Part shown: positions 10,785-64,000 of the stretch, one piece after another
Position numbering within the stretch: the first letter of the stretch is position 1
How the letters are laid out: each line of letters starts with the position of its first letter
Source: Candidatus Latescibacterota bacterium
GTDB lineage: Bacteria > Latescibacterota > UBA2968
Direction of reading: 5' to 3'
DNA: 64,000 nucleotides
Assembly: GCA_965204745.1 (NCBI GenBank)
Contig: OZ242010.1
Coordinates: forward strand, 1,792,001-1,856,000
Notes under the pieces: generated by a model
Databases searched by the model: none
The model's input: the letters and a program-made list of their open reading frames with translations, nothing else
Told to the model about the DNA's origin: nothing
Position numbers and translations under genes: made by a program

Positions 10785-12152
10785 TAAGTAACAGTTCGCT
10801 ATAATCGTATCGTATCGTATAAAATCGTATATTATCGAGCGAAAGCAGTTGGTGTTGAAGATTGGATAGGTCAATGGTTAAGACGCACAAAAATGCACTG
10901 AAGCCGAATAAAGCCCAGGCGACGCGGTTGTCAAAGCACTGTGGCTATGCTCGTGTTGCGTATAATCACGCCCTCAATGCGTTCAAACACGCCCTGGATA
11001 TGGGCGTGTTTAAGTCGGTCTATACGCTCAAGCGGGAGTTCAATGCGGTCAAGTATGCCGAGTATGAATGGTCTGTCGAGTTGTCGCAGAACGCATCAAA
11101 GAACGCCATTCACGATTTGGACTTTGCCATCAAGAGGTGGCAAGACAAGAAATCGCCAGCGAGGTTTCCAAAACACCGCAAGCGGTCTGGTAAGCGTGCG
11201 TACCAAGCCGATAATGGGCCCGGTACGGTCAAGGTGGACGGCAAAAAGGTCTATCTCCCCAAAATTGGTTGGGTCAAGATGGCTGAGCGTCTGCGCTTTC
11301 CCGGCGAGATTGTCAAAGCCACGGTGACAAAGACGCATGGCCGCTGGTTTGTTTGTCTATCTGTCGATACTGGCGAGGCTGTGCCCGATAAGCGGTCTGG
11401 TGAACCCATCGGCATTGACATGGGCATCAAGACGCTGGCAACCTATTCGGACGGCACAACGATAGACAATCCAAAAGGATCAATTGATACGCAGTATCGG
11501 AAGTTGCGCCGAGTAGATAAAGCCATCGCACGCTCAAAGCATGTGCATGGCAAGAACCAACGCAGTAATCGCAGGCAACGCTTGTATGACCAACGCCAGC
11601 GCATCTACGGACGCATCACAACCATTCGCAACGATGTTCATCACAAAGCCACTTCCGCTTTGGTCAAAGTGACGACCGTTGGCAAGGTGATTGTCGAAAC
11701 GCTGAATGTCGCCGGTATGCGCCGCAACAAAAGCCTGTCGCGTGCGTTCCACCGCGCCGGCATCGCAGGCTTCTTGCGTATGTTGGCGTATAAGTGCGAA
11801 TGGTCTGGCGTGGCCTTTGAGAAAGCCGACAGGTGGTTTGCCAGCACGAAGACATGCTCTGGCTGTGGACAGCGCAAGGTTGCGATGGATTTGTCAGAGC
11901 GTGAGTATGTCTGCTTGTCCTGCGGACTAGTTCTTGACCGCGATTTGAACGCGGCAAGAAATCTTGCACAATACGACGCGGCAAGCCCTGCCGAGTCGAT
12001 AAACGGATGTGGAGGAACGATAAGACGGACACGAGGTTGTAAGCGCGTGGACGCACGCCCAAAGAAGCGTCAATCGAATCAACTGTCATTGGCTTTTGTG
12101 TAGCATGCGATAGTATGCGATAAAGTCGATTTCATACAATTTGAAGGAGCGG
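10785..12152 (+). mobile_element. IS607-like element, tnpB only (E1)
   Basis: left end GG|TAAGTAACAGT followed by ATCGTAT repeats; right end with ATGCGATA repeats ending TTTGAAGGAGCGG; no TIR/TSD; no tnpA. Confidence 0.8.
10874..12103 (+). CDS. tnpB: RNA-guided endonuclease TnpB
   Basis: N-terminal HTH; RuvC triad GIDMG / IVETL / DRDLNAA; CSGC..CLSC zinc finger. Confidence 0.95.
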   Translation: MVKTHKNALKPNKAQATRLSKHCGYARVAYNHALNAFKHALDMGVFKSVYTLKREFNAVKYAEYEWSVELSQNASKNAIHDLDFAIKRWQDKKSPARFPKHRKRSGKRAYQADNGPGTVKVDGKKVYLPKIGWVKMAERLRFPGEIVKATVTKTHGRWFVCLSVDTGEAVPDKRSGEPIGIDMGIKTLATYSDGTTIDNPKGSIDTQYRKLRRVDKAIARSKHVHGKNQRSNRRQRLYDQRQRIYGRITTIRNDVHHKATSALVKVTTVGKVIVETLNVAGMRRNKSLSRAFHRAGIAGFLRMLAYKCEWSGVAFEKADRWFASTKTCSGCGQRKVAMDLSEREYVCLSCGLVLDRDLNAARNLAQYDAASPAESINGCGGTIRRTRGCKRVDARPKKRQSNQLSLAFV

Positions 12153-60374: not shown

Positions 60375-61154
60375 TCACTCCGGTTCGAGGACGCCGCGAT
60401 CCATTTCGTACCAGAACACGTCGCCGGATTCAATGCTGTCCTGAACCCGGTTGTCTCGATGCACCCCGGATACCGCGGCATAGGCGCGTTTGTCCGTGAA
60501 CCGCGTCAAGAACTCGGCGTTGCGAATGGCCCTGGTCGTATCCCTTCCGTTGACTGTGAATGAAATTTCCACGGCGATGTAGCAGGTTTCGCCCGCTTGG
60601 TCTGTGGCCTCCATAACTAGGTCGGCCCTTCGGAAACTTCTCAGTTCGTTTGTGGGAATGCCAGAGGTATCAGCGGAATCGATCAGATCCCAGAGGTCTT
60701 CACGCAAGAGGGTTTTCGTCCGCCGCATGCCCATCTCTCGGGCGATGAGCGTCGCATCTTCAATAGCGGCATTGCTGGCGAGAATGCCTTTGACCTCTCC
60801 CAGACTGGCCTCGATTCTGTTGAACCGCTTGTCCGTGGCTTCAACATGGTGGTCGAATCGCTGCTCGAGATGGTCAAATCGTTGCTCGAGTTTGTCGAAC
60901 CGCTGCTCAAGATGGTCAAATCGTTGCTCGAGTTTGTCGAACCGCTGCTCGAGATGATCAAATCGCTTATTGGTGGCTTCGACAAATTTGTTCATCTCCG
61001 CGACGAATTTGTTCATCTCGGTGGCGAACTGCGTAAATTTTTCGGGCAATTCGATCAATTCGCTGGACAGTAGCCGAACGCGCAAGGCTTCGGCCCACTC
61101 GGGTTTTTCGTCCAACAACTGTATCAAATCCTCGATGGTGTCAATGGTGTGCAT
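60375..61154 (-). CDS. heptad-repeat coiled-coil protein with C-terminal PD-(D/E)XK-like domain
   Basis: (FDHLEQR/FDKLEQR)n; ADLVME...YIAVEIS; GAGGAGG RBS. Confidence 0.8.
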   Translation of the reverse strand: MHTIDTIEDLIQLLDEKPEWAEALRVRLLSSELIELPEKFTQFATEMNKFVAEMNKFVEATNKRFDHLEQRFDKLEQRFDHLEQRFDKLEQRFDHLEQRFDHHVEATDKRFNRIEASLGEVKGILASNAAIEDATLIAREMGMRRTKTLLREDLWDLIDSADTSGIPTNELRSFRRADLVMEATDQAGETCYIAVEISFTVNGRDTTRAIRNAEFLTRFTDKRAYAAVSGVHRDNRVQDSIESGDVFWYEMDRGVLEPE

Positions 61155-61190
61155 ACCCCCTCCTCGGTTGGCGTGTCATCAATTTCCGTA

Positions 61191-61219
61191 AAAGTATCCA
61201 ACTCTGCTTCTAAAGTCAA
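61191..61219 (-). promoter_or_regulatory. possible sigma70 promoter abutting the E2 right end
   Basis: TTGACT-N17-TACTTT upstream of the 61154 ATG. Confidence 0.5.
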
Positions 61220-61377
61220 CCGCTCCTTCAAATCGTAACATCTTGTAACATCTTGTCACAAATCGCACAATTTGAATAGACGCTTCATCGGGTCAGCGTC
61301 CAAGCACATACAACCTCTTGTCCGTCTTACAACACCTCCACATCCGTTTTTTACTTGCTCGGTCAAGCTAGCCGCGC
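61200..61377 (-). ncRNA. predicted stand-alone omegaRNA
   Basis: colinear blocks shared with E1: AAACGGATGTGGAGG, TAAGACGGACA, GAGGTTGTA, TGGACGC, GAAGCGTC; boundaries approximate. Confidence 0.75.
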
Positions 61378-61706
61378 AAGTGATAGTTGGTTGTTACCAT
61401 CATTCCTTTGGATTTTACACTGGCAGGAGATTTTAGGTCTGTCGCTTGGTTATCGCTGTCACAGACGTGCCTTTGCCAGCAACCACATATCCCGCTTCAC
61501 TTGTCAAAGAACAAGAACAACAAAAAATCCGCCGATGGTTGATTCCAAAGCAAGGCTTTGCCACCGGCGGAATGAGACAGATACAAAAATGGCCTTGCTT
61601 TTGGAATCACACCTTAGATGACCGCAAACCGCAAAGGGTTTCACCTTTTTGTGCGATTTGTGATGATTTGTTGCGATTTGTTGCGATTTTCGCACACTGT
61701 TAAAAA
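61220..61706 (-). mobile_element. protein-less IS607-like element (E2)
   Basis: left end GG|TTTTTAACAGT with AAATCGCAAC 10-bp repeats; right end ATTTGAAGGAGCGG identical to E1; 15-bp perfect subterminal IR (61256-70 / 61649-63). Confidence 0.85.
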
Positions 61707-62007
61707 CCCCTTTGCTTCAATTAGTAGCTAGTGCCCATACATCTCGCCTTTGAACGGGCTGTCGCCAGTTGTACCTCGCTCGTGTTTTTTGAGGCTCATT
61801 CGCTTTTTGTATTTCTTTCGACAGGCACAGGGGCCTAGCCCTACGGTTGATGGAAGCAGGGTGGCCTTCTCCCTCCTTGTATCTTGGCAGTCAGCACATA
61901 CATTGCCTTGGGGTGGAAGGGTGGGGGCTGACCACTGACCACTGACTACTGACCACTGACCACTGTCTCTTCCCTCTCCCTTCTTACGTCTTGCTTCCCG
62001 CTTCTCC

Positions 62008-64000
62008 ATGACCGACTGGATATTACAACTCTTGACCGGTGAACGCGCTGCCGAGTACCGAGATGCGTGGTTTGTGTTGGACATTGCATGGCCCGTGGCA
62101 GGGGTGCTGCTCGGCGTTGCGTTTTGCGCGAGTGCGTGGTTTTGGCACAGGCGGTTGCCCGCGTTCCCAAAGGCGTTGATCGGGGTGCGCGTGTTGGCAT
62201 TGGTGCTGGTGCTGTTTTTGGCGATGGGGCCCACGCTCGTGGCGCGGCGGTTGGAGCCGGGGACGCATTTCGTGCCGGTGCTGTTCGACGATTCCCGCAG
62301 CATGAGCGTGTCCGAATACGGCGATCAGACGCGCGCAGAGCGATTCGTGCAGGCGTACCGCGCATCCGGATTTGAGGACGCCTTGGCGCGGACGCATCGG
62401 GTCGTGCGGTTTCGGTTTGGCGAGAACACCGCGCGAGTCAATGGTGTTGCGGACCTCGGCTTTGATCAGGCGCAGTCGGATATCGCGGGCGCAGTGCGTG
62501 CGGTGATCGGACAAATGGCCGGCGCGGAACTGTCGGCGGTGGTGGTGTTCAGCGATGGGGTGCAGCAAAGCGATGCGCCCGTGCAACTGAAGGAGTTGCC
62601 CGGTGACGTGCCCGTGTTTGCCGTGGGAACGGGGCGCGACGACCGTTGGCGCGACTTGGCATTGGTCGATGTGGCTACCGCCCGGGTGCGCGACGACGAA
62701 GTGGCGGTGACAGCGCGGGTGGTCGCCGAGGGCATGACCGGGGAAAATGTGCGCGTTGAAACCCGGGCCGGCGGGCGCGTCGTGGCGTCGGCCTCACTTG
62801 CGATTTCAGGGGAGAAGGAAGAACACTACGTCCGCCTGAAATTTCAGCCGAGGGCCGAGGGCTGGCGGGTCTATCGCGTGCAGACGCGCCTGGCAGATAC
62901 CACGAGCGCGAAAGACCGCATCGCCGCGAATAATGCGCGGGATATTTTGGTGGATCAGCGCGCGCGGGTGTTTCGCATTTTGTACTTTAGCGGGCGGCCA
63001 AATTGGGAGGGCAAGTTTTTGCGCCGCGCATTGGATGGGGATCGGCAGTTGGCCTTGTCGAGCCTGCTCCGCATTTCCGGGCCCGAGCGCAAGTTCGTGT
63101 TTCAGGGGCGCGATGCGACGATGGCGAATCCCCTGTTTGAGGGCTTTGACGATCAGGCGTTGAACGCGCCGCGCTACGACGAGGCCGTGTTCATCCGCAT
63201 CGGCGTGTCCAAATCCGCGTTGGCGAGTGGGTATCCGTCTGATGCCGCCGAGCTTTTTCGCTACGATCTGGTGATTTGGGGGGACATCGAGCGCGATTTC
63301 TTTTCCCTTGCCCAACTCAATTTGACGCGGGAATTTGTGTCCAAACGCGGGGGGAGCTTCTTGATGCTGGGCGGGCCGCGCGCGTACTCTGAAGGCGGGT
63401 GGGCGCGGTCGAGCATCGAGCCGTTGTTGCCTATCGCGCTGGGGCCTGCGGGCGATTACGACGACATCGCCTTTCGCGCAAAGCCGACCATTGACGGCCT
63501 CTTGTCCGGGGTGTGGTCATTGGGCGAAAATGCCGCAGTCAATGCGGAGCGATGGGCGAATTTGGCGTCGCTTTACGGGGTCAATGCGTTTGCGTCTGTG
63601 CGGGCGGGCGCGACTGTGATGGCGACTGTGGAATCCGAATCCGACGGTGTTCATGGGCAACCCCTGTTCGCGTGGCAGCGGTACGGCGAGGGCTTGAGCG
63701 CGGCCTTGGGCACGGGCGAGACGTGGCAATGGCAGATGATGCAAGACGATGAGGACGCGGCACACGAACGCTTTTGGCGGCAACTGGCGCGGCTACTGGT
63801 CATGCGCGTGCCCGAGCCCGTGGCGATGATCCACAGCGGCGAGGATGCGCTGGTGGGCGAGATGCAGGCGTTGAAATTTGCGGTGCGCGATTCCCTGTTT
63901 GAACCCCGCGAGGGCCTGTCTGTGACCGTGCAGGTCGAGGCGGAAAATGGCGGTGTCGTCACCTTGCCGGTTTCCGAGTCTCTCGCCGAGGTGGGGGCTT
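62008..64000 (+). CDS. vWA + glutamine amidotransferase-like membrane protein (3' truncated by window edge; not in the ORF track)
   Basis: MTDWILQLL..., LFDDSRSM MIDAS, FSDG, GRPNWEGKFLRRAL, FLMLGGP, TWQWQM..HERFWRQL. Confidence 0.85.
   Translation, partial: MTDWILQLLTGERAAEYRDAWFVLDIAWPVAGVLLGVAFCASAWFWHRRLPAFPKALIGVRVLALVLVLFLAMGPTLVARRLEPGTHFVPVLFDDSRSMSVSEYGDQTRAERFVQAYRASGFEDALARTHRVVRFRFGENTARVNGVADLGFDQAQSDIAGAVRAVIGQMAGAELSAVVVFSDGVQQSDAPVQLKELPGDVPVFAVGTGRDDRWRDLALVDVATARVRDDEVAVTARVVAEGMTGENVRVETRAGGRVVASASLAISGEKEEHYVRLKFQPRAEGWRVYRVQTRLADTTSAKDRIAANNARDILVDQRARVFRILYFSGRPNWEGKFLRRALDGDRQLALSSLLRISGPERKFVFQGRDATMANPLFEGFDDQALNAPRYDEAVFIRIGVSKSALASGYPSDAAELFRYDLVIWGDIERDFFSLAQLNLTREFVSKRGGSFLMLGGPRAYSEGGWARSSIEPLLPIALGPAGDYDDIAFRAKPTIDGLLSGVWSLGENAAVNAERWANLASLYGVNAFASVRAGATVMATVESESDGVHGQPLFAWQRYGEGLSAALGTGETWQWQMMQDDEDAAHERFWRQLARLLVMRVPEPVAMIHSGEDALVGEMQALKFAVRDSLFEPREGLSVTVQVEAENGGVVTLPVSESLAEVGA

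What the first reader, a model, noticed from the sequence alone, without database searches (positions are those of the whole stretch)
61518..61612. Attenuator/pseudoknot-like RNA switch inside E2, upstream of the omegaRNA
Seen (minus strand): TGATTCCAAAAGCAAGGC (61609-61592) is complementary, with one bulge, to GCCTTGCTTTGGAATCA (61556-61540). The latter lies in the loop of a GC-rich stem CCGCCGGTGG / CCATCGGCGG followed by ATTTTTTG, i.e. a terminator-like hairpin. The two pairings are either mutually exclusive or pseudoknotted, and the G-U pair favours the minus strand. Inference: transcription from the left end into the omegaRNA may be controlled by a termination switch, giving a regulated guide RNA.
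Basis: partly seen in the sequence, partly recalled or inferred. Interest (0 to 1): 0.7.

Follow-up and report, generated by a model that had tools for sequence, protein, structure and literature searches.

The report
Terminator–antiterminator leader of TnpB elements
A gene-less transposon remnant carries a conserved RNA leader that can fold either into a transcription stop signal or into a competing long hairpin, which probably acts as an on/off gate for the transposon's nuclease gene and, in this copy, its guide RNA.

Summary
On the minus strand, arm A (61609-61592) pairs with A' (61556-61540). A' lies in the loop of a GC-rich stem, B 61571-61561 with B' 61538-61528, which is followed by a U-run.

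It is not a one-off. It is one copy of a roughly 95-105-nt leader cassette. I found 32 copies in 14 of 21 genomes of this genus.

Both helices keep pairing through compensatory changes in two separately aligned sets. Frequent U·G pairs fix the strand. With only 1 nt between A' and B', the full-length helices cannot coexist. Their predicted energies are usually close.

The native position is between a promoter-like motif and the TnpB start codon. In this window the cassette sits in a TnpB-less mini-element, directly upstream of a covarying omegaRNA-like core.

My best reading is a transcription attenuator whose input signal is unknown. I have no transcript data. A leader peptide, an upstream anti-antiterminator and leader-omegaRNA pairing were each tested and not supported. 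It is a new variant of transposon-borne 5' terminators.

The parts
61220..61710 (-). Mini-element 'E2': a TnpB-less derivative of a TnpB transposon. The left end starts at GGGGTTTTTAACAG and the right end stops at GAAGGAGCGG.
   Evidence: Own-genome searches find a 90% identical copy and a 73% identical copy over the same span, plus partial copies. Boundaries come from where the flanks of the copies diverge. A TnpB C-terminal remnant is detected by tblastn at window 61277-61375.
61651..61688 (-). Left-end tandem ~10-bp repeats (AATCGCAAC-like). They form an imperfect inverted repeat with the right-end repeats.
   Evidence: Inverted repeat I1, 41 nt, 78% complementary; coordinates. Other subfamilies carry different repeat motifs at the same places.
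61613..61644 (-). Conserved promoter-like motif: GTGAAACC, then 16 nt, then CATCTAAG. The class consensus is GGAAC(Y)TTT ... CGTC(T/A)AAG. The predicted transcription start is at or just before arm A.
   Evidence: Conserved in all 13 class-a copies. The equivalent position in the other classes holds a sigma-70-like TTGCTA/TTGACA-17/18-TATATT box ending 7 nt before arm A. Similar motifs lie upstream of two ECF-size sigma genes. The likeness to ECF promoters is from recall.
61592..61609 (-). Arm A, the 5' strand of the long helix (antiterminator).
   Evidence: Covariation with A'.
61572..61591 (-). Linker L1 (CATTTTTGTATCTGTCTCAT), a U-rich stretch. It is the best-conserved stretch that belongs to neither long helix (consensus YUUUUUUGUGYCUAU across classes).
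   Evidence: Invariant columns.
61561..61571 (-). Arm B, the 5' strand of the terminator stem.
   Evidence: (I14).
61546..61562 (-). Invariant mini-hairpin GGCAAAGC-CTT-GCTTTG, which caps the terminator conformer. Its 3' half is also the 5' half of A'.
   Evidence: Invariant columns; folded with the 5' part blocked.
61540..61556 (-). Arm A', the 3' strand of the long helix. Its last 7 nt (GAATCAA) form the bulge of the terminator conformer.
   Evidence: (I11, I15).
61528..61538 (-). Arm B', the 3' strand of the terminator stem, 1 nt after A'.
61516..61527 (-). U-run (TTTTTTGTTGTT) directly after B'.
   Evidence: In the 19 leaders set out, the search for a U-run found one at the 3' end of each (by construction of that search).
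61279..61509 (-). OmegaRNA-like structured core. It is shared by mini-elements that carry three different sets of terminal repeats, and it overlaps the remnant of the TnpB 3' end.
   Evidence: Copies. RNAalifold on 8 copies gives 48 pairs, 14 with compensatory changes. tblastn remnant of TnpB residues 369-400.
61230..61268 (-). Right-end repeats, inverted relative to the left-end repeats.
   Evidence: (I1).

Best explanation
The region is the leader of a self-contained expression cassette carried by TnpB transposons of this bacterial genus.

Proposed sequence of events (inferred):
1. A promoter-like motif (61644-61613) places the transcription start at the first bases of arm A.
2. The nascent RNA can fold in two ways. 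Arm A can pair with A' to give a 17-22-bp helix. Alternatively B can pair with B', capped by the invariant CAAAGC/GCUUUG mini-hairpin, to give an intrinsic terminator followed by a U-run.
3. Only 1 nt separates A' from B', so the full A:A' helix and the terminator stem cannot coexist. A:A' therefore acts as an antiterminator.
4. A' is made before B'. The default expected from the order of synthesis is read-through into TnpB, or in the gene-less copy E2 into the omegaRNA-like core.
5. Anything that occupies or removes arm A or the conserved U-rich linker L1 would let the terminator form.

What is shown: the two helices, their covariation, their steric exclusivity, the strand, and the fixed position between promoter-like motif and start codon.

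What is inferred: the start site, that termination occurs, and the direction of the switch.

What is unknown: the signal.
For: 1. Recurrence. Model R1 finds 13 copies in 3 of 21 genus genomes, and in 3 of the 101 genomes searched. Model R2, built from an independent set, finds 19 copies in 11 other genus genomes.

2. Covariation of A:A'. In 8 own-genome copies, 7 of 17 pairs change on both sides (90.2% of cells over both helices are paired, against 30-46% when slid). In 13 copies it is 9 of 17. In the second set it is 8 of 20, with 91.4% paired against 34-44% when slid and 0 of 500 shuffles reaching the covariation score.

3. Covariation of the terminator stem. In the second set, 7 of 13 outer pairs change on both sides and 88.5% of cells are paired. 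My position-by-position table of 21 distinct leaders shows 3-6 pair types at most positions.

4. Strand. That table contains 18 U·G and 10 G·U pairs in B:B'. These would be mismatches on the other strand.

5. Two states of similar energy. The energy difference between the conformers is within 6.6 kcal/mol in 16 of 19 leaders.

6. Position. Of 32 copies, 16 lie directly before an intact TnpB gene and 3 before a broken one. The TnpB genes belong to four lineages that are as little as about 29% identical. A Shine-Dalgarno-like GGAG/GGGAG lies between the U-run and the start codon.

7. Promoter. In classes b-g a TTGCTA/TTGACA-17/18-TATATT box ends 7 nt before arm A. Sister TnpB copies use the homologous box with no leader at all, with the ATG 6-7 nt after it, in 10 of 20 fetched upstream regions. 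The leader is therefore an insertable unit between start site and start codon.

8. Not required for transposition. 3 of 4 near-identical TnpB copies in this genome lack it.
Against: - There are no transcript data of any kind, so the start site, the termination and the switching are untested. No RNA run is listed.
- The signal is unknown. Three candidates I tested failed: a leader peptide, an upstream anti-antiterminator, and leader-omegaRNA pairing.
- In 3 of 13 class-a copies the lower A:A' stem is broken. These may be decayed copies.
- Many TnpB copies manage without the leader.
- The energy model ignores pseudoknots. A partial pseudoknot (upper A:A' plus B:B') could let the terminator form even with A bound.
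- All copies come from one genus and are related, so the shuffle controls overstate independence.
- The A2 alignment was fitted to the A:A' structure.
- Promoters are consensus matches only, and the class-a box is non-canonical.
Confidence: 0.6

Rival explanations
1. It is a constitutive insulator. The hairpin plus U-run is a fixed 5' terminator that shields TnpB or the omegaRNA from transcription entering the element, as in IS200. The A:A' helix only stabilises the 5' end of the message, or forms a partial pseudoknot with the terminator loop. There is no regulated switch.
For: 5' terminators inside insertion sequences are documented: the IS200 left end (PMC4513863, passages read) and 'mobile attenuators' upstream of transposase genes (PMC2965389, passages read). 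The terminator conformer is strong, about -25 kcal/mol. In 9 of 19 leaders it is the more stable state. A partial pseudoknot is geometrically possible.
Against: The promoter-like box lies upstream of the terminator, so a constitutive terminator would also silence the element's own transcript. The lower A:A' stem, which is the part incompatible with B:B', covaries strongly (positions 3-6). Native upstream sequence does not favour the terminator more than shuffled sequence does: z > 0 in 8 of 19, mean z -0.15. Discrimination between entering transcripts and the element's own is therefore not explained.
Confidence: 0.15
2. It is an independent small-RNA gene. Promoter, ~95-105-nt RNA and terminator would form a gene whose product acts in trans, for example on sister copies, and TnpB or omegaRNA expression by read-through is incidental.
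For: The cassette has a promoter-like box, a defined predicted start and an intrinsic terminator. It also occurs where no TnpB follows: 8 copies have no downstream ORF or lie in a mini-element, and 5 precede unrelated ORFs. The lower-stem sequence differs between copies of one genome, with 8 different hexamers in 10 copies of this genome. That would suit copy-specific RNA-RNA recognition.
Against: The spacing to the TnpB ribosome-binding site and start codon is fixed, which is typical of a leader. I found no target. The only target test run, leader 5' part against the cognate omegaRNA region, showed no preference for the cognate pair.
Confidence: 0.12
3. It is a single-stranded-DNA or cruciform structure used in transposition, such as a binding hairpin for the transposase.
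For: IS200/IS605 elements use subterminal hairpins on one DNA strand (general knowledge; left and right end palindromes are mentioned in bioRxiv 10.1101/2023.03.14.532601, passages read). Strand-specific G·T pairs are tolerated in such hairpins.
Against: 3 of 4 near-identical TnpB copies with the same ends lack it. In the TnpB lineage where it is most common, a separate left-end hairpin lies about 90 nt further upstream. The conserved U-run and the fixed distance to the start codon have no role in DNA recognition. It also occurs before non-transposon genes. This genome has no Y1 transposase match.
Confidence: 0.05
4. It is a chance palindrome, or a selfish repeat with no function.
For: Single-sequence folding is only moderately better than shuffles.
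Against: There are compensatory changes in both helices in two independent alignments, and the orientation and position relative to start codons are fixed.
Confidence: 0.03

Closest known systems
IS200 left-end terminator and 5'-UTR stem-loop (Salmonella IS200; PMC4513863, passages read)
   Same: It is a Rho-independent terminator inside the left part of an IS200/IS605-family element, upstream of the element's gene. RNA structure in the 5' region limits expression.
   Different: In IS200 the terminator (nt 12-34) lies upstream of the transcription start (about nt 40) and is described as bidirectional. Here the promoter-like box lies upstream of the terminator, the terminator is one-directional (no T-run on the other strand), and a covarying 5' arm competes with it. 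The gene controlled is TnpB or the omegaRNA, not TnpA.
'Mobile attenuators' (Naville & Gautheret 2010, PMC2965389, passages read)
   Same: These are conserved terminators upstream of transposase or IS-related genes. Related transposon-borne copies are also found upstream of unrelated cellular genes. Both situations occur here (TnpB-linked copies; class-e copies and a truncated copy before other genes).
   Different: The passages I read describe terminators as insulators and name ISBma2, IS3-group and ISL3 families. They give no antiterminator arm and no TnpB/omegaRNA context. I could not see the supplementary tables, which may list other families.
Antisense-RNA-driven attenuation of plasmid replication genes (pT181, pIP501 type; recalled, no paper read here)
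   Same: A leader with a 5' 'preemptor' arm prevents a terminator just upstream of the regulated gene, and a trans factor that sequesters that arm causes termination. The copy-specific variable stems found here would fit such a scheme.
   Different: I found no antisense gene. There is only one weak promoter-like match on the plus strand at 61501-61528, and it lies in E2-specific sequence.
Protein-mediated attenuators (TRAP/trp and PyrR/pyr of Bacillus; recalled)
   Same: The antiterminator forms by default, and a protein bound to the 5' part of the leader frees the terminator. The conserved U-rich linker L1 could be such a site.
   Different: There are no repeated triplet or known binding motifs, no Rfam match, and no candidate protein.
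PATE-like gene-less IS200/IS605 derivatives that keep an omegaRNA (bioRxiv 10.1101/2023.03.14.532601, passages read)
   Same: E2 and its siblings keep the element ends and a structured omegaRNA-like core but have no protein gene, so they would need TnpB in trans.
   Different: Five of the mini-elements in this genome additionally carry the promoter-plus-leader cassette in front of the omegaRNA-like core. The passages read do not mention this.

Membership tests
Intrinsic (Rho-independent) terminator | GC-rich hairpin directly followed by a U-run on the transcribed strand | tested here: met
   11-bp stem plus 6-bp cap, about -25 kcal/mol, then TTTTTTG. The tool's simple scan missed it because it allows loops of only 3-8 nt.
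Intrinsic (Rho-independent) terminator | RNA 3' ends in the U-run, or termination in vitro | not testable with these tools
   No RNA run holds the stretch.
Transcription attenuator (terminator/antiterminator leader) | Two mutually exclusive helices, both conserved | tested here: met
   Covariation in both helices. Exclusivity follows from the 1-nt link between A' and B' and the known geometry of H-type pseudoknots.
Transcription attenuator (terminator/antiterminator leader) | Lies between the promoter and the regulated gene | tested here: inconclusive
   The position before start codons is met in 19 of 32 copies. The promoter is a consensus match only.
Transcription attenuator (terminator/antiterminator leader) | An identified sensor (leader peptide, ligand pocket, protein or RNA site) | tested here: not met
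   A short ORF ending at the conserved TAA is seen in 5 of the 8 own-genome copies read, and in one of these its start codon is displaced. It is absent from c2052, c3401 and c483, and its TAA is also missing from more distant copies. Neither an upstream competitor nor omegaRNA pairing was supported. L1 is a candidate site only.
IS200-type left-end insulator terminator | The terminator lies upstream of the element's own start site, so only outside transcripts meet it | tested here: not met
   The promoter-like box is upstream of arm A in every class.
Described RNA families (Rfam 15) | Match at the gathering score | tested here: not met
   0 matches in the whole window. The only weak hit in 60900-62300 is a plant microRNA model at E 4.7.
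IS200/IS605 subterminal transposase-binding hairpin | Present at the end of every mobilisable copy | tested here: not met
   Absent from 3 of 4 near-identical TnpB copies. A separate left-end hairpin exists further upstream in the other lineage.
omegaRNA (for the downstream core 61279-61509) | Encoded at the 3' end of tnpB or the right end, and structured | tested here: met
   Overlaps a TnpB C-terminal remnant. Homologous to the 3' ends of full-length copies. 14 of 48 pairs covary.
omegaRNA (for the downstream core 61279-61509) | Binds TnpB and guides DNA cleavage | not testable with these tools
TnpB (for the genes the leader precedes) | OrfB_IS605 and Cas12f1-like TNB domains | tested here: met
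   Pfam E 1e-17 and 1.3e-21 for window 10874-12100; E 3.9e-15 and 1.5e-18 for the leader-linked gene in L012.

The most novel reading that the evidence does not exclude
The leader may be a self-recognising gate. Because the transcript starts exactly at arm A, only RNA born at the element's own promoter, or RNA not titrated by a copy-specific trans RNA, forms the antiterminator. The lower stem covaries and differs between copies of one genome. It could serve as an address that keeps the many TnpB and omegaRNA copies in a genome from cross-regulating. That would be a copy-number or identity control for guide-RNA production, with no described counterpart in OMEGA systems. In class a this would sit on top of a stress (ECF-type sigma) promoter.
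Probability: 0.15. Interest if true: 0.8.

Novelty: new variant of a known kind. Interest (0 to 1): 0.55.

Why it matters
How TnpB nucleases and their guide RNAs are expressed in their native hosts is largely unknown. This leader is a candidate cis-regulatory RNA for that step. It is a covariation-supported two-state leader placed just before the TnpB start codon, and in gene-less mini-elements just before the guide-RNA scaffold.

The proposal is directly testable with arm-A mutants and compensatory changes. If it holds, expression of these nucleases and their guides would be gated at the level of transcription elongation. The cassette is a compact, portable promoter-plus-switch, and the genus has also placed it in front of unrelated genes.

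My literature searches for TnpB with 'antiterminator' (5 papers, 4 listed) and with 'transcription attenuation' (3 papers) gave no title on this subject (listings only).

Tried and rejected
- **Rfam.** The whole window at gathering score gave 0 matches. Region 60900-62300 at E up to 10 gave only a plant microRNA model at E 4.7. I rejected that hit.
- **tRNA/tmRNA scan.** None in the window.
- **Leader peptide.** A short ORF ending at the conserved TAA is present in five of the eight own-genome copies read (with a displaced start codon in one of them). It is absent from c2052, c3401 and c483, and its TAA is also missing from more distant copies. Rejected.
- **Upstream anti-antiterminator.** I asked whether the 60 nt upstream sequester arm A in transcripts entering from outside. 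Native sequence was no better than 60 dinucleotide shuffles: z > 0 in 8 of 19, mean z -0.15. The earlier apparent shift is expected by construction. Not supported.
- **Leader-omegaRNA pairing.** I computed a duplex-energy matrix for 10 elements, leader 5' part against omegaRNA region. The cognate pairs were not favoured. This is a crude test. Not supported.
- **Pattern scans of public collections.** In genome contigs, 12 stretches matched and only 1 passed the model. That one has the same sequence as a same-genus copy, and its record title reads 'MAG: Candidatus Latescibacterota bacterium'. In metagenome contigs, 6 stretches matched and 0 passed. The pattern was tailored to class a, so other classes could not be found this way.
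- **Distant TnpB genes.** I read by eye the upstream regions of 13 TnpB genes about 30% identical, from other genera and this genus. No comparable leader was visible. No formal scan was done.
- **Transcript evidence.** No RNA holder is listed for the stretch.
- **Alignment A4.** It came from model R1 with filters off and contained antisense and false rows, so I did not use it.
- **ECF-type promoter idea.** Two genome-wide motif scans gave few hits: 12 (6 of them leader copies) and 4. A loose AAC-N16-19-CGT[CA] pattern occurs upstream of 5 of 15 sigma-factor genes, which is about the chance rate. Only two of these look like the leader motif on reading. I keep it as a lead, not a finding.
- **Proteins after class-e leaders.** Pfam found nothing, and PADLOC gave only weak hits at E 0.0016 and 4.4e-05.
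- **Supplementary files.** Supplements of the papers cited were not available. Those of PMC2965389 may list further IS families with 5' terminators.

Full report
**1. What is in the sequence**

- Arm A, TGATTCCAAAAGCAAGGC, at 61609-61592.
- Arm A', GCCTTGCTTTGGAATCA, at 61556-61540.
- A stem TCCGCCGGTGG (B, 61571-61561) with CCATCGGCGGA (B', 61538-61528).
- TTTTTTG directly after B'.

A pairs with A' over 17 pairs with one bulged A. The repeat finder reports the same arms.

RNAfold prefers the long A:A' hairpin for this copy, at -35.4 kcal/mol, z -2.80, with 1 of 200 shuffles as good. The plus strand folds about as well, with z -3.37. A single sequence therefore decides neither significance nor strand.

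When the 5' part is kept unpaired, the 3' part folds into an interrupted 17-bp hairpin of about -25 kcal/mol. It consists of B:B', a 7-nt bulge (GAATCAA), and an invariant cap CAAAGC-NNN-GCTTTG.

**2. What the surroundings are**

The region lies in a 491-bp repeat, window 61220-61710. Copies and parts of it recur in the genome.

One copy of its left part sits directly upstream of a 409-aa protein gene. That protein has four full-length copies in the genome. One of them lies in this window at 10874-12100. It carries the OrfB_IS605, Cas12f1-like TNB and HTH_OrfB_IS605 domains, so it is a TnpB.

It keeps these parts:
- the left end, with ~10-bp tandem repeats;
- the hairpin module;
- a ~230-nt core;
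- a remnant of the TnpB C-terminus (tblastn);
- the right end, with inverted copies of the repeats.

The core is shared by mini-elements that have three different sets of terminal repeats. RNAalifold predicts 48 pairs in it, 14 of which keep pairing through changes on both sides. It lies where characterised TnpB elements encode their guide RNA. Calling it omegaRNA-like is therefore reasonable.

The genome has no Y1 transposase match. It has six serine-recombinase matches with the layout of IS607 transposases, three of them interrupted by a stop codon.

**3. The hairpin module is a separable cassette**

Three of the four near-identical TnpB copies lack the ~100-nt module, and one has it.

Eight copies were found in the genome by BLAST. 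A covariance model built on them (R1) found:
- ten copies in this genome;
- three more in two other genomes of the genus;
- none in the 80 genomes of other genera searched (3 of 101 genomes hit; 3 of 21 genus genomes).

Reading the upstream regions of TnpB homologues that are 57-74% identical showed leaders with the same architecture but quite different sequence. A second model built only from eight of those (R2) found 19 copies in 11 further genus genomes and none in this genome.

The total is 32 copies in 14 of 21 genomes. What follows each copy:

| Downstream of the leader | Copies |
|---|---|
| Intact TnpB gene | 16 |
| Broken or deleted TnpB gene | 3 |
| No ORF, or a mini-element core (including E2) | 8 |
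| Unrelated ORF with no Pfam family | 5 |

One of the 16 intact cases was judged from coordinates only. The TnpB genes belong to four lineages, some only about 29% identical to each other.

**4. Both helices are under selection**

For A:A':
- In the eight own-genome copies, 7 of 17 pairs change on both sides. Over both helices, 90.2% of cells are standard pairs, against 30-46% when the partner is slid, and 0 of 500 shuffles reach the covariation score.
- In 13 copies, 9 of 17 pairs change on both sides. That alignment was fitted to A:A', which favours it.
- In the independent second set, aligned by MAFFT, 8 of 20 pairs change on both sides, with 91.4% of cells paired against 34-44% when slid.

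For the terminator:
- In the second set, the outer stem has 7 of 13 pairs with changes on both sides and 88.5% of cells paired.
- The inner helix of the terminator conformer is less well kept in that set, at 72.2%.

A position-by-position table that I computed for 21 distinct leaders shows several pair types at most positions of both helices. It contains 18 U·G and 10 G·U pairs in B:B'. Those pairs exist only on this strand.

The copies are relatives within one genus. The shuffle controls therefore overstate independence. The slid-partner control and the fact that whole helices have been rewritten between classes are the stronger arguments.

**5. Why the two helices exclude each other**

The order along the RNA is A, linker L1 (20 nt), B, 4 nt, A', 1 nt, B'. 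In an H-type pseudoknot the third loop must cross the first stem. One nucleotide cannot span 17 pairs (established geometry; inference here). The full A:A' helix and B:B' are therefore alternatives.

The upper 7-8 pairs of A:A' could coexist with B:B'. I cannot exclude that partial pseudoknot, and the energy model used does not treat it.

The predicted energies of the two conformers differ by no more than 6.6 kcal/mol in 16 of 19 leaders. That fits a two-state element.

The 3' half of A' is the bulge of the terminator conformer. It would be free there to receive arm A.

**6. Where transcription probably starts**

In the second set, and in further classes, a TTGCTA/TTGACA box, 17-18 nt and TATATT end 7 nt before the first base of arm A.

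Ten of 20 sister TnpB genes have the homologous box 6-7 nt before the ATG with no leader. Six are preceded by a Y1 tnpA gene or its remnant. Four have the leader. The leader thus looks like an insert between start site and start codon.

In the class that includes E2, the conserved 42 nt upstream of A read GGAAC(Y)TTT, about 13 nt, then CGTC(T/A)AAG. From recall, this resembles promoters of ECF sigma factors. Similar strings lie upstream of two ECF-size sigma genes and of a secreted protein gene in this genome. The scans are too thin for statistics. All promoter statements are consensus readings.

**7. Mechanism**

The most economical reading is a leader attenuator. The RNA starts with arm A. 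A' emerges before B', so A:A' can form first and block the terminator, which allows read-through into TnpB. In E2, read-through would run into the omegaRNA-like core.

TnpB is reported to process its own mRNA into the guide (PMC10278001; title and start of the abstract seen in the listing). The same gate would then control both nuclease and guide in full-length elements.

What flips the gate is unknown. The tests I ran:
- A leader peptide is not conserved.
- The promoter region does not act as a competitor for arm A beyond what shuffled sequence does.
- The leader shows no preferential pairing with its own omegaRNA region.

The U-rich linker L1 is the best-conserved stretch that belongs to neither long helix, and it is the obvious candidate site for a trans factor.

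**8. Rivals**

- A constitutive insulator, as in IS200, or a 'mobile attenuator'. This fails to explain a promoter upstream of the terminator and the covariation of the lower A:A' stem.
- A separate small-RNA gene. This is not excluded.
- A DNA hairpin for transposition. This is unlikely, because sister copies lack it, a different left-end hairpin exists, and the U-run and the spacing to the start codon are conserved.

**9. Comparison and novelty**

The kind of element, a 5' terminator inside an insertion sequence, is known.

New here are:
- the covarying 5'-terminal antiterminator arm;
- the position downstream of the element's own promoter;
- the link to TnpB genes and to gene-less omegaRNA mini-elements;
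- the re-use of the cassette in front of unrelated genes.

There is no Rfam family for it. Searches for TnpB with 'antiterminator' or 'transcription attenuation' listed no paper on this (listings only).

**10. Verdict**

I rate it a new variant of a known kind, of moderate to good interest for people who work on OMEGA systems and on RNA leaders. It is limited by the absence of any transcript data and by its restriction, so far, to one genus.

Noticed in passing
Its own left end has no leader, and a TATAAT box sits near the left terminus.
   Followed up: partly
window 61928-61968, and many genome sites: Tandem CTGACCACTGACCA-type repeats next to E2 recur at dozens of places in the genome. They read as repetitive peptide-like ORFs on both strands. 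Nature unknown.
   Followed up: no
window 60375-61154 (-): A 259-aa ORF just downstream of E2 has 21-nt tandem repeats that encode a coiled-coil-like FDHLEQRFDKLEQR run. Pfam gives only weak coiled-coil hits below the cut-offs.
   Followed up: partly
genome C1: 210494, 3134478, 2876228, 1989429, 4364223, 4119935: Six IS607-like units, each a serine-recombinase TnpA with a MerR-like N-terminus followed by a TnpB-like frame. Three have a stop codon inside the recombinase match. They are possible mobilisers of the TnpB-only elements that have tandem-repeat ends.
   Followed up: partly
genome C1: 4471672-4471800 (+): A truncated left end plus promoter-like box, arm A, L1 and B, but no A', B' or U-run, is fused to a ribosome-binding site and a 400-aa non-TnpB ORF followed by an ATPase-like ORF. 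It looks like a leader promoter captured by a host or defence-like operon.
   Followed up: partly
L113-L117 (five genus genomes): A further leader class has the same architecture and a TTGACA-17-TATGAT box. It sits after a conserved upstream sequence and before three different ORFs with no Pfam family, or before no ORF at all. It looks like a variable-cargo site.
   Followed up: partly
L087-L102 and L063, L067: Many TnpB genes of the genus appear to be leaderless. The TATATT box ends 6-7 nt before the ATG in 10 of 20 fetched regions.
   Followed up: no
genome C1: 3055958, 3848586, 5434380, 5275083: These mini-elements share the omegaRNA-like core of E2 but carry different terminal repeat motifs and no leader. 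The guide core has been shuffled between ends.
   Followed up: partly
window 61501-61528 (+): A promoter-like match TTGTCA-16-AAAAAT points antisense into the leader. It lies in E2-specific sequence and was not seen at the TnpB-linked copies read.
   Followed up: no
genome C1: 5347170 (+), about 2110300 (-), about 2945330 (+): GGAAC/AAAAC-N17-CGTC(T/A) strings resembling the class-a leader box lie upstream of a secreted glycine-rich protein gene and of two ECF-size sigma-factor genes.
   Followed up: partly
L055 (G018): One TnpB copy keeps only the terminator half of the leader. Arm A is replaced by what looks like coding sequence of a neighbouring gene. This is a natural 'arm-A deletion'.
   Followed up: no
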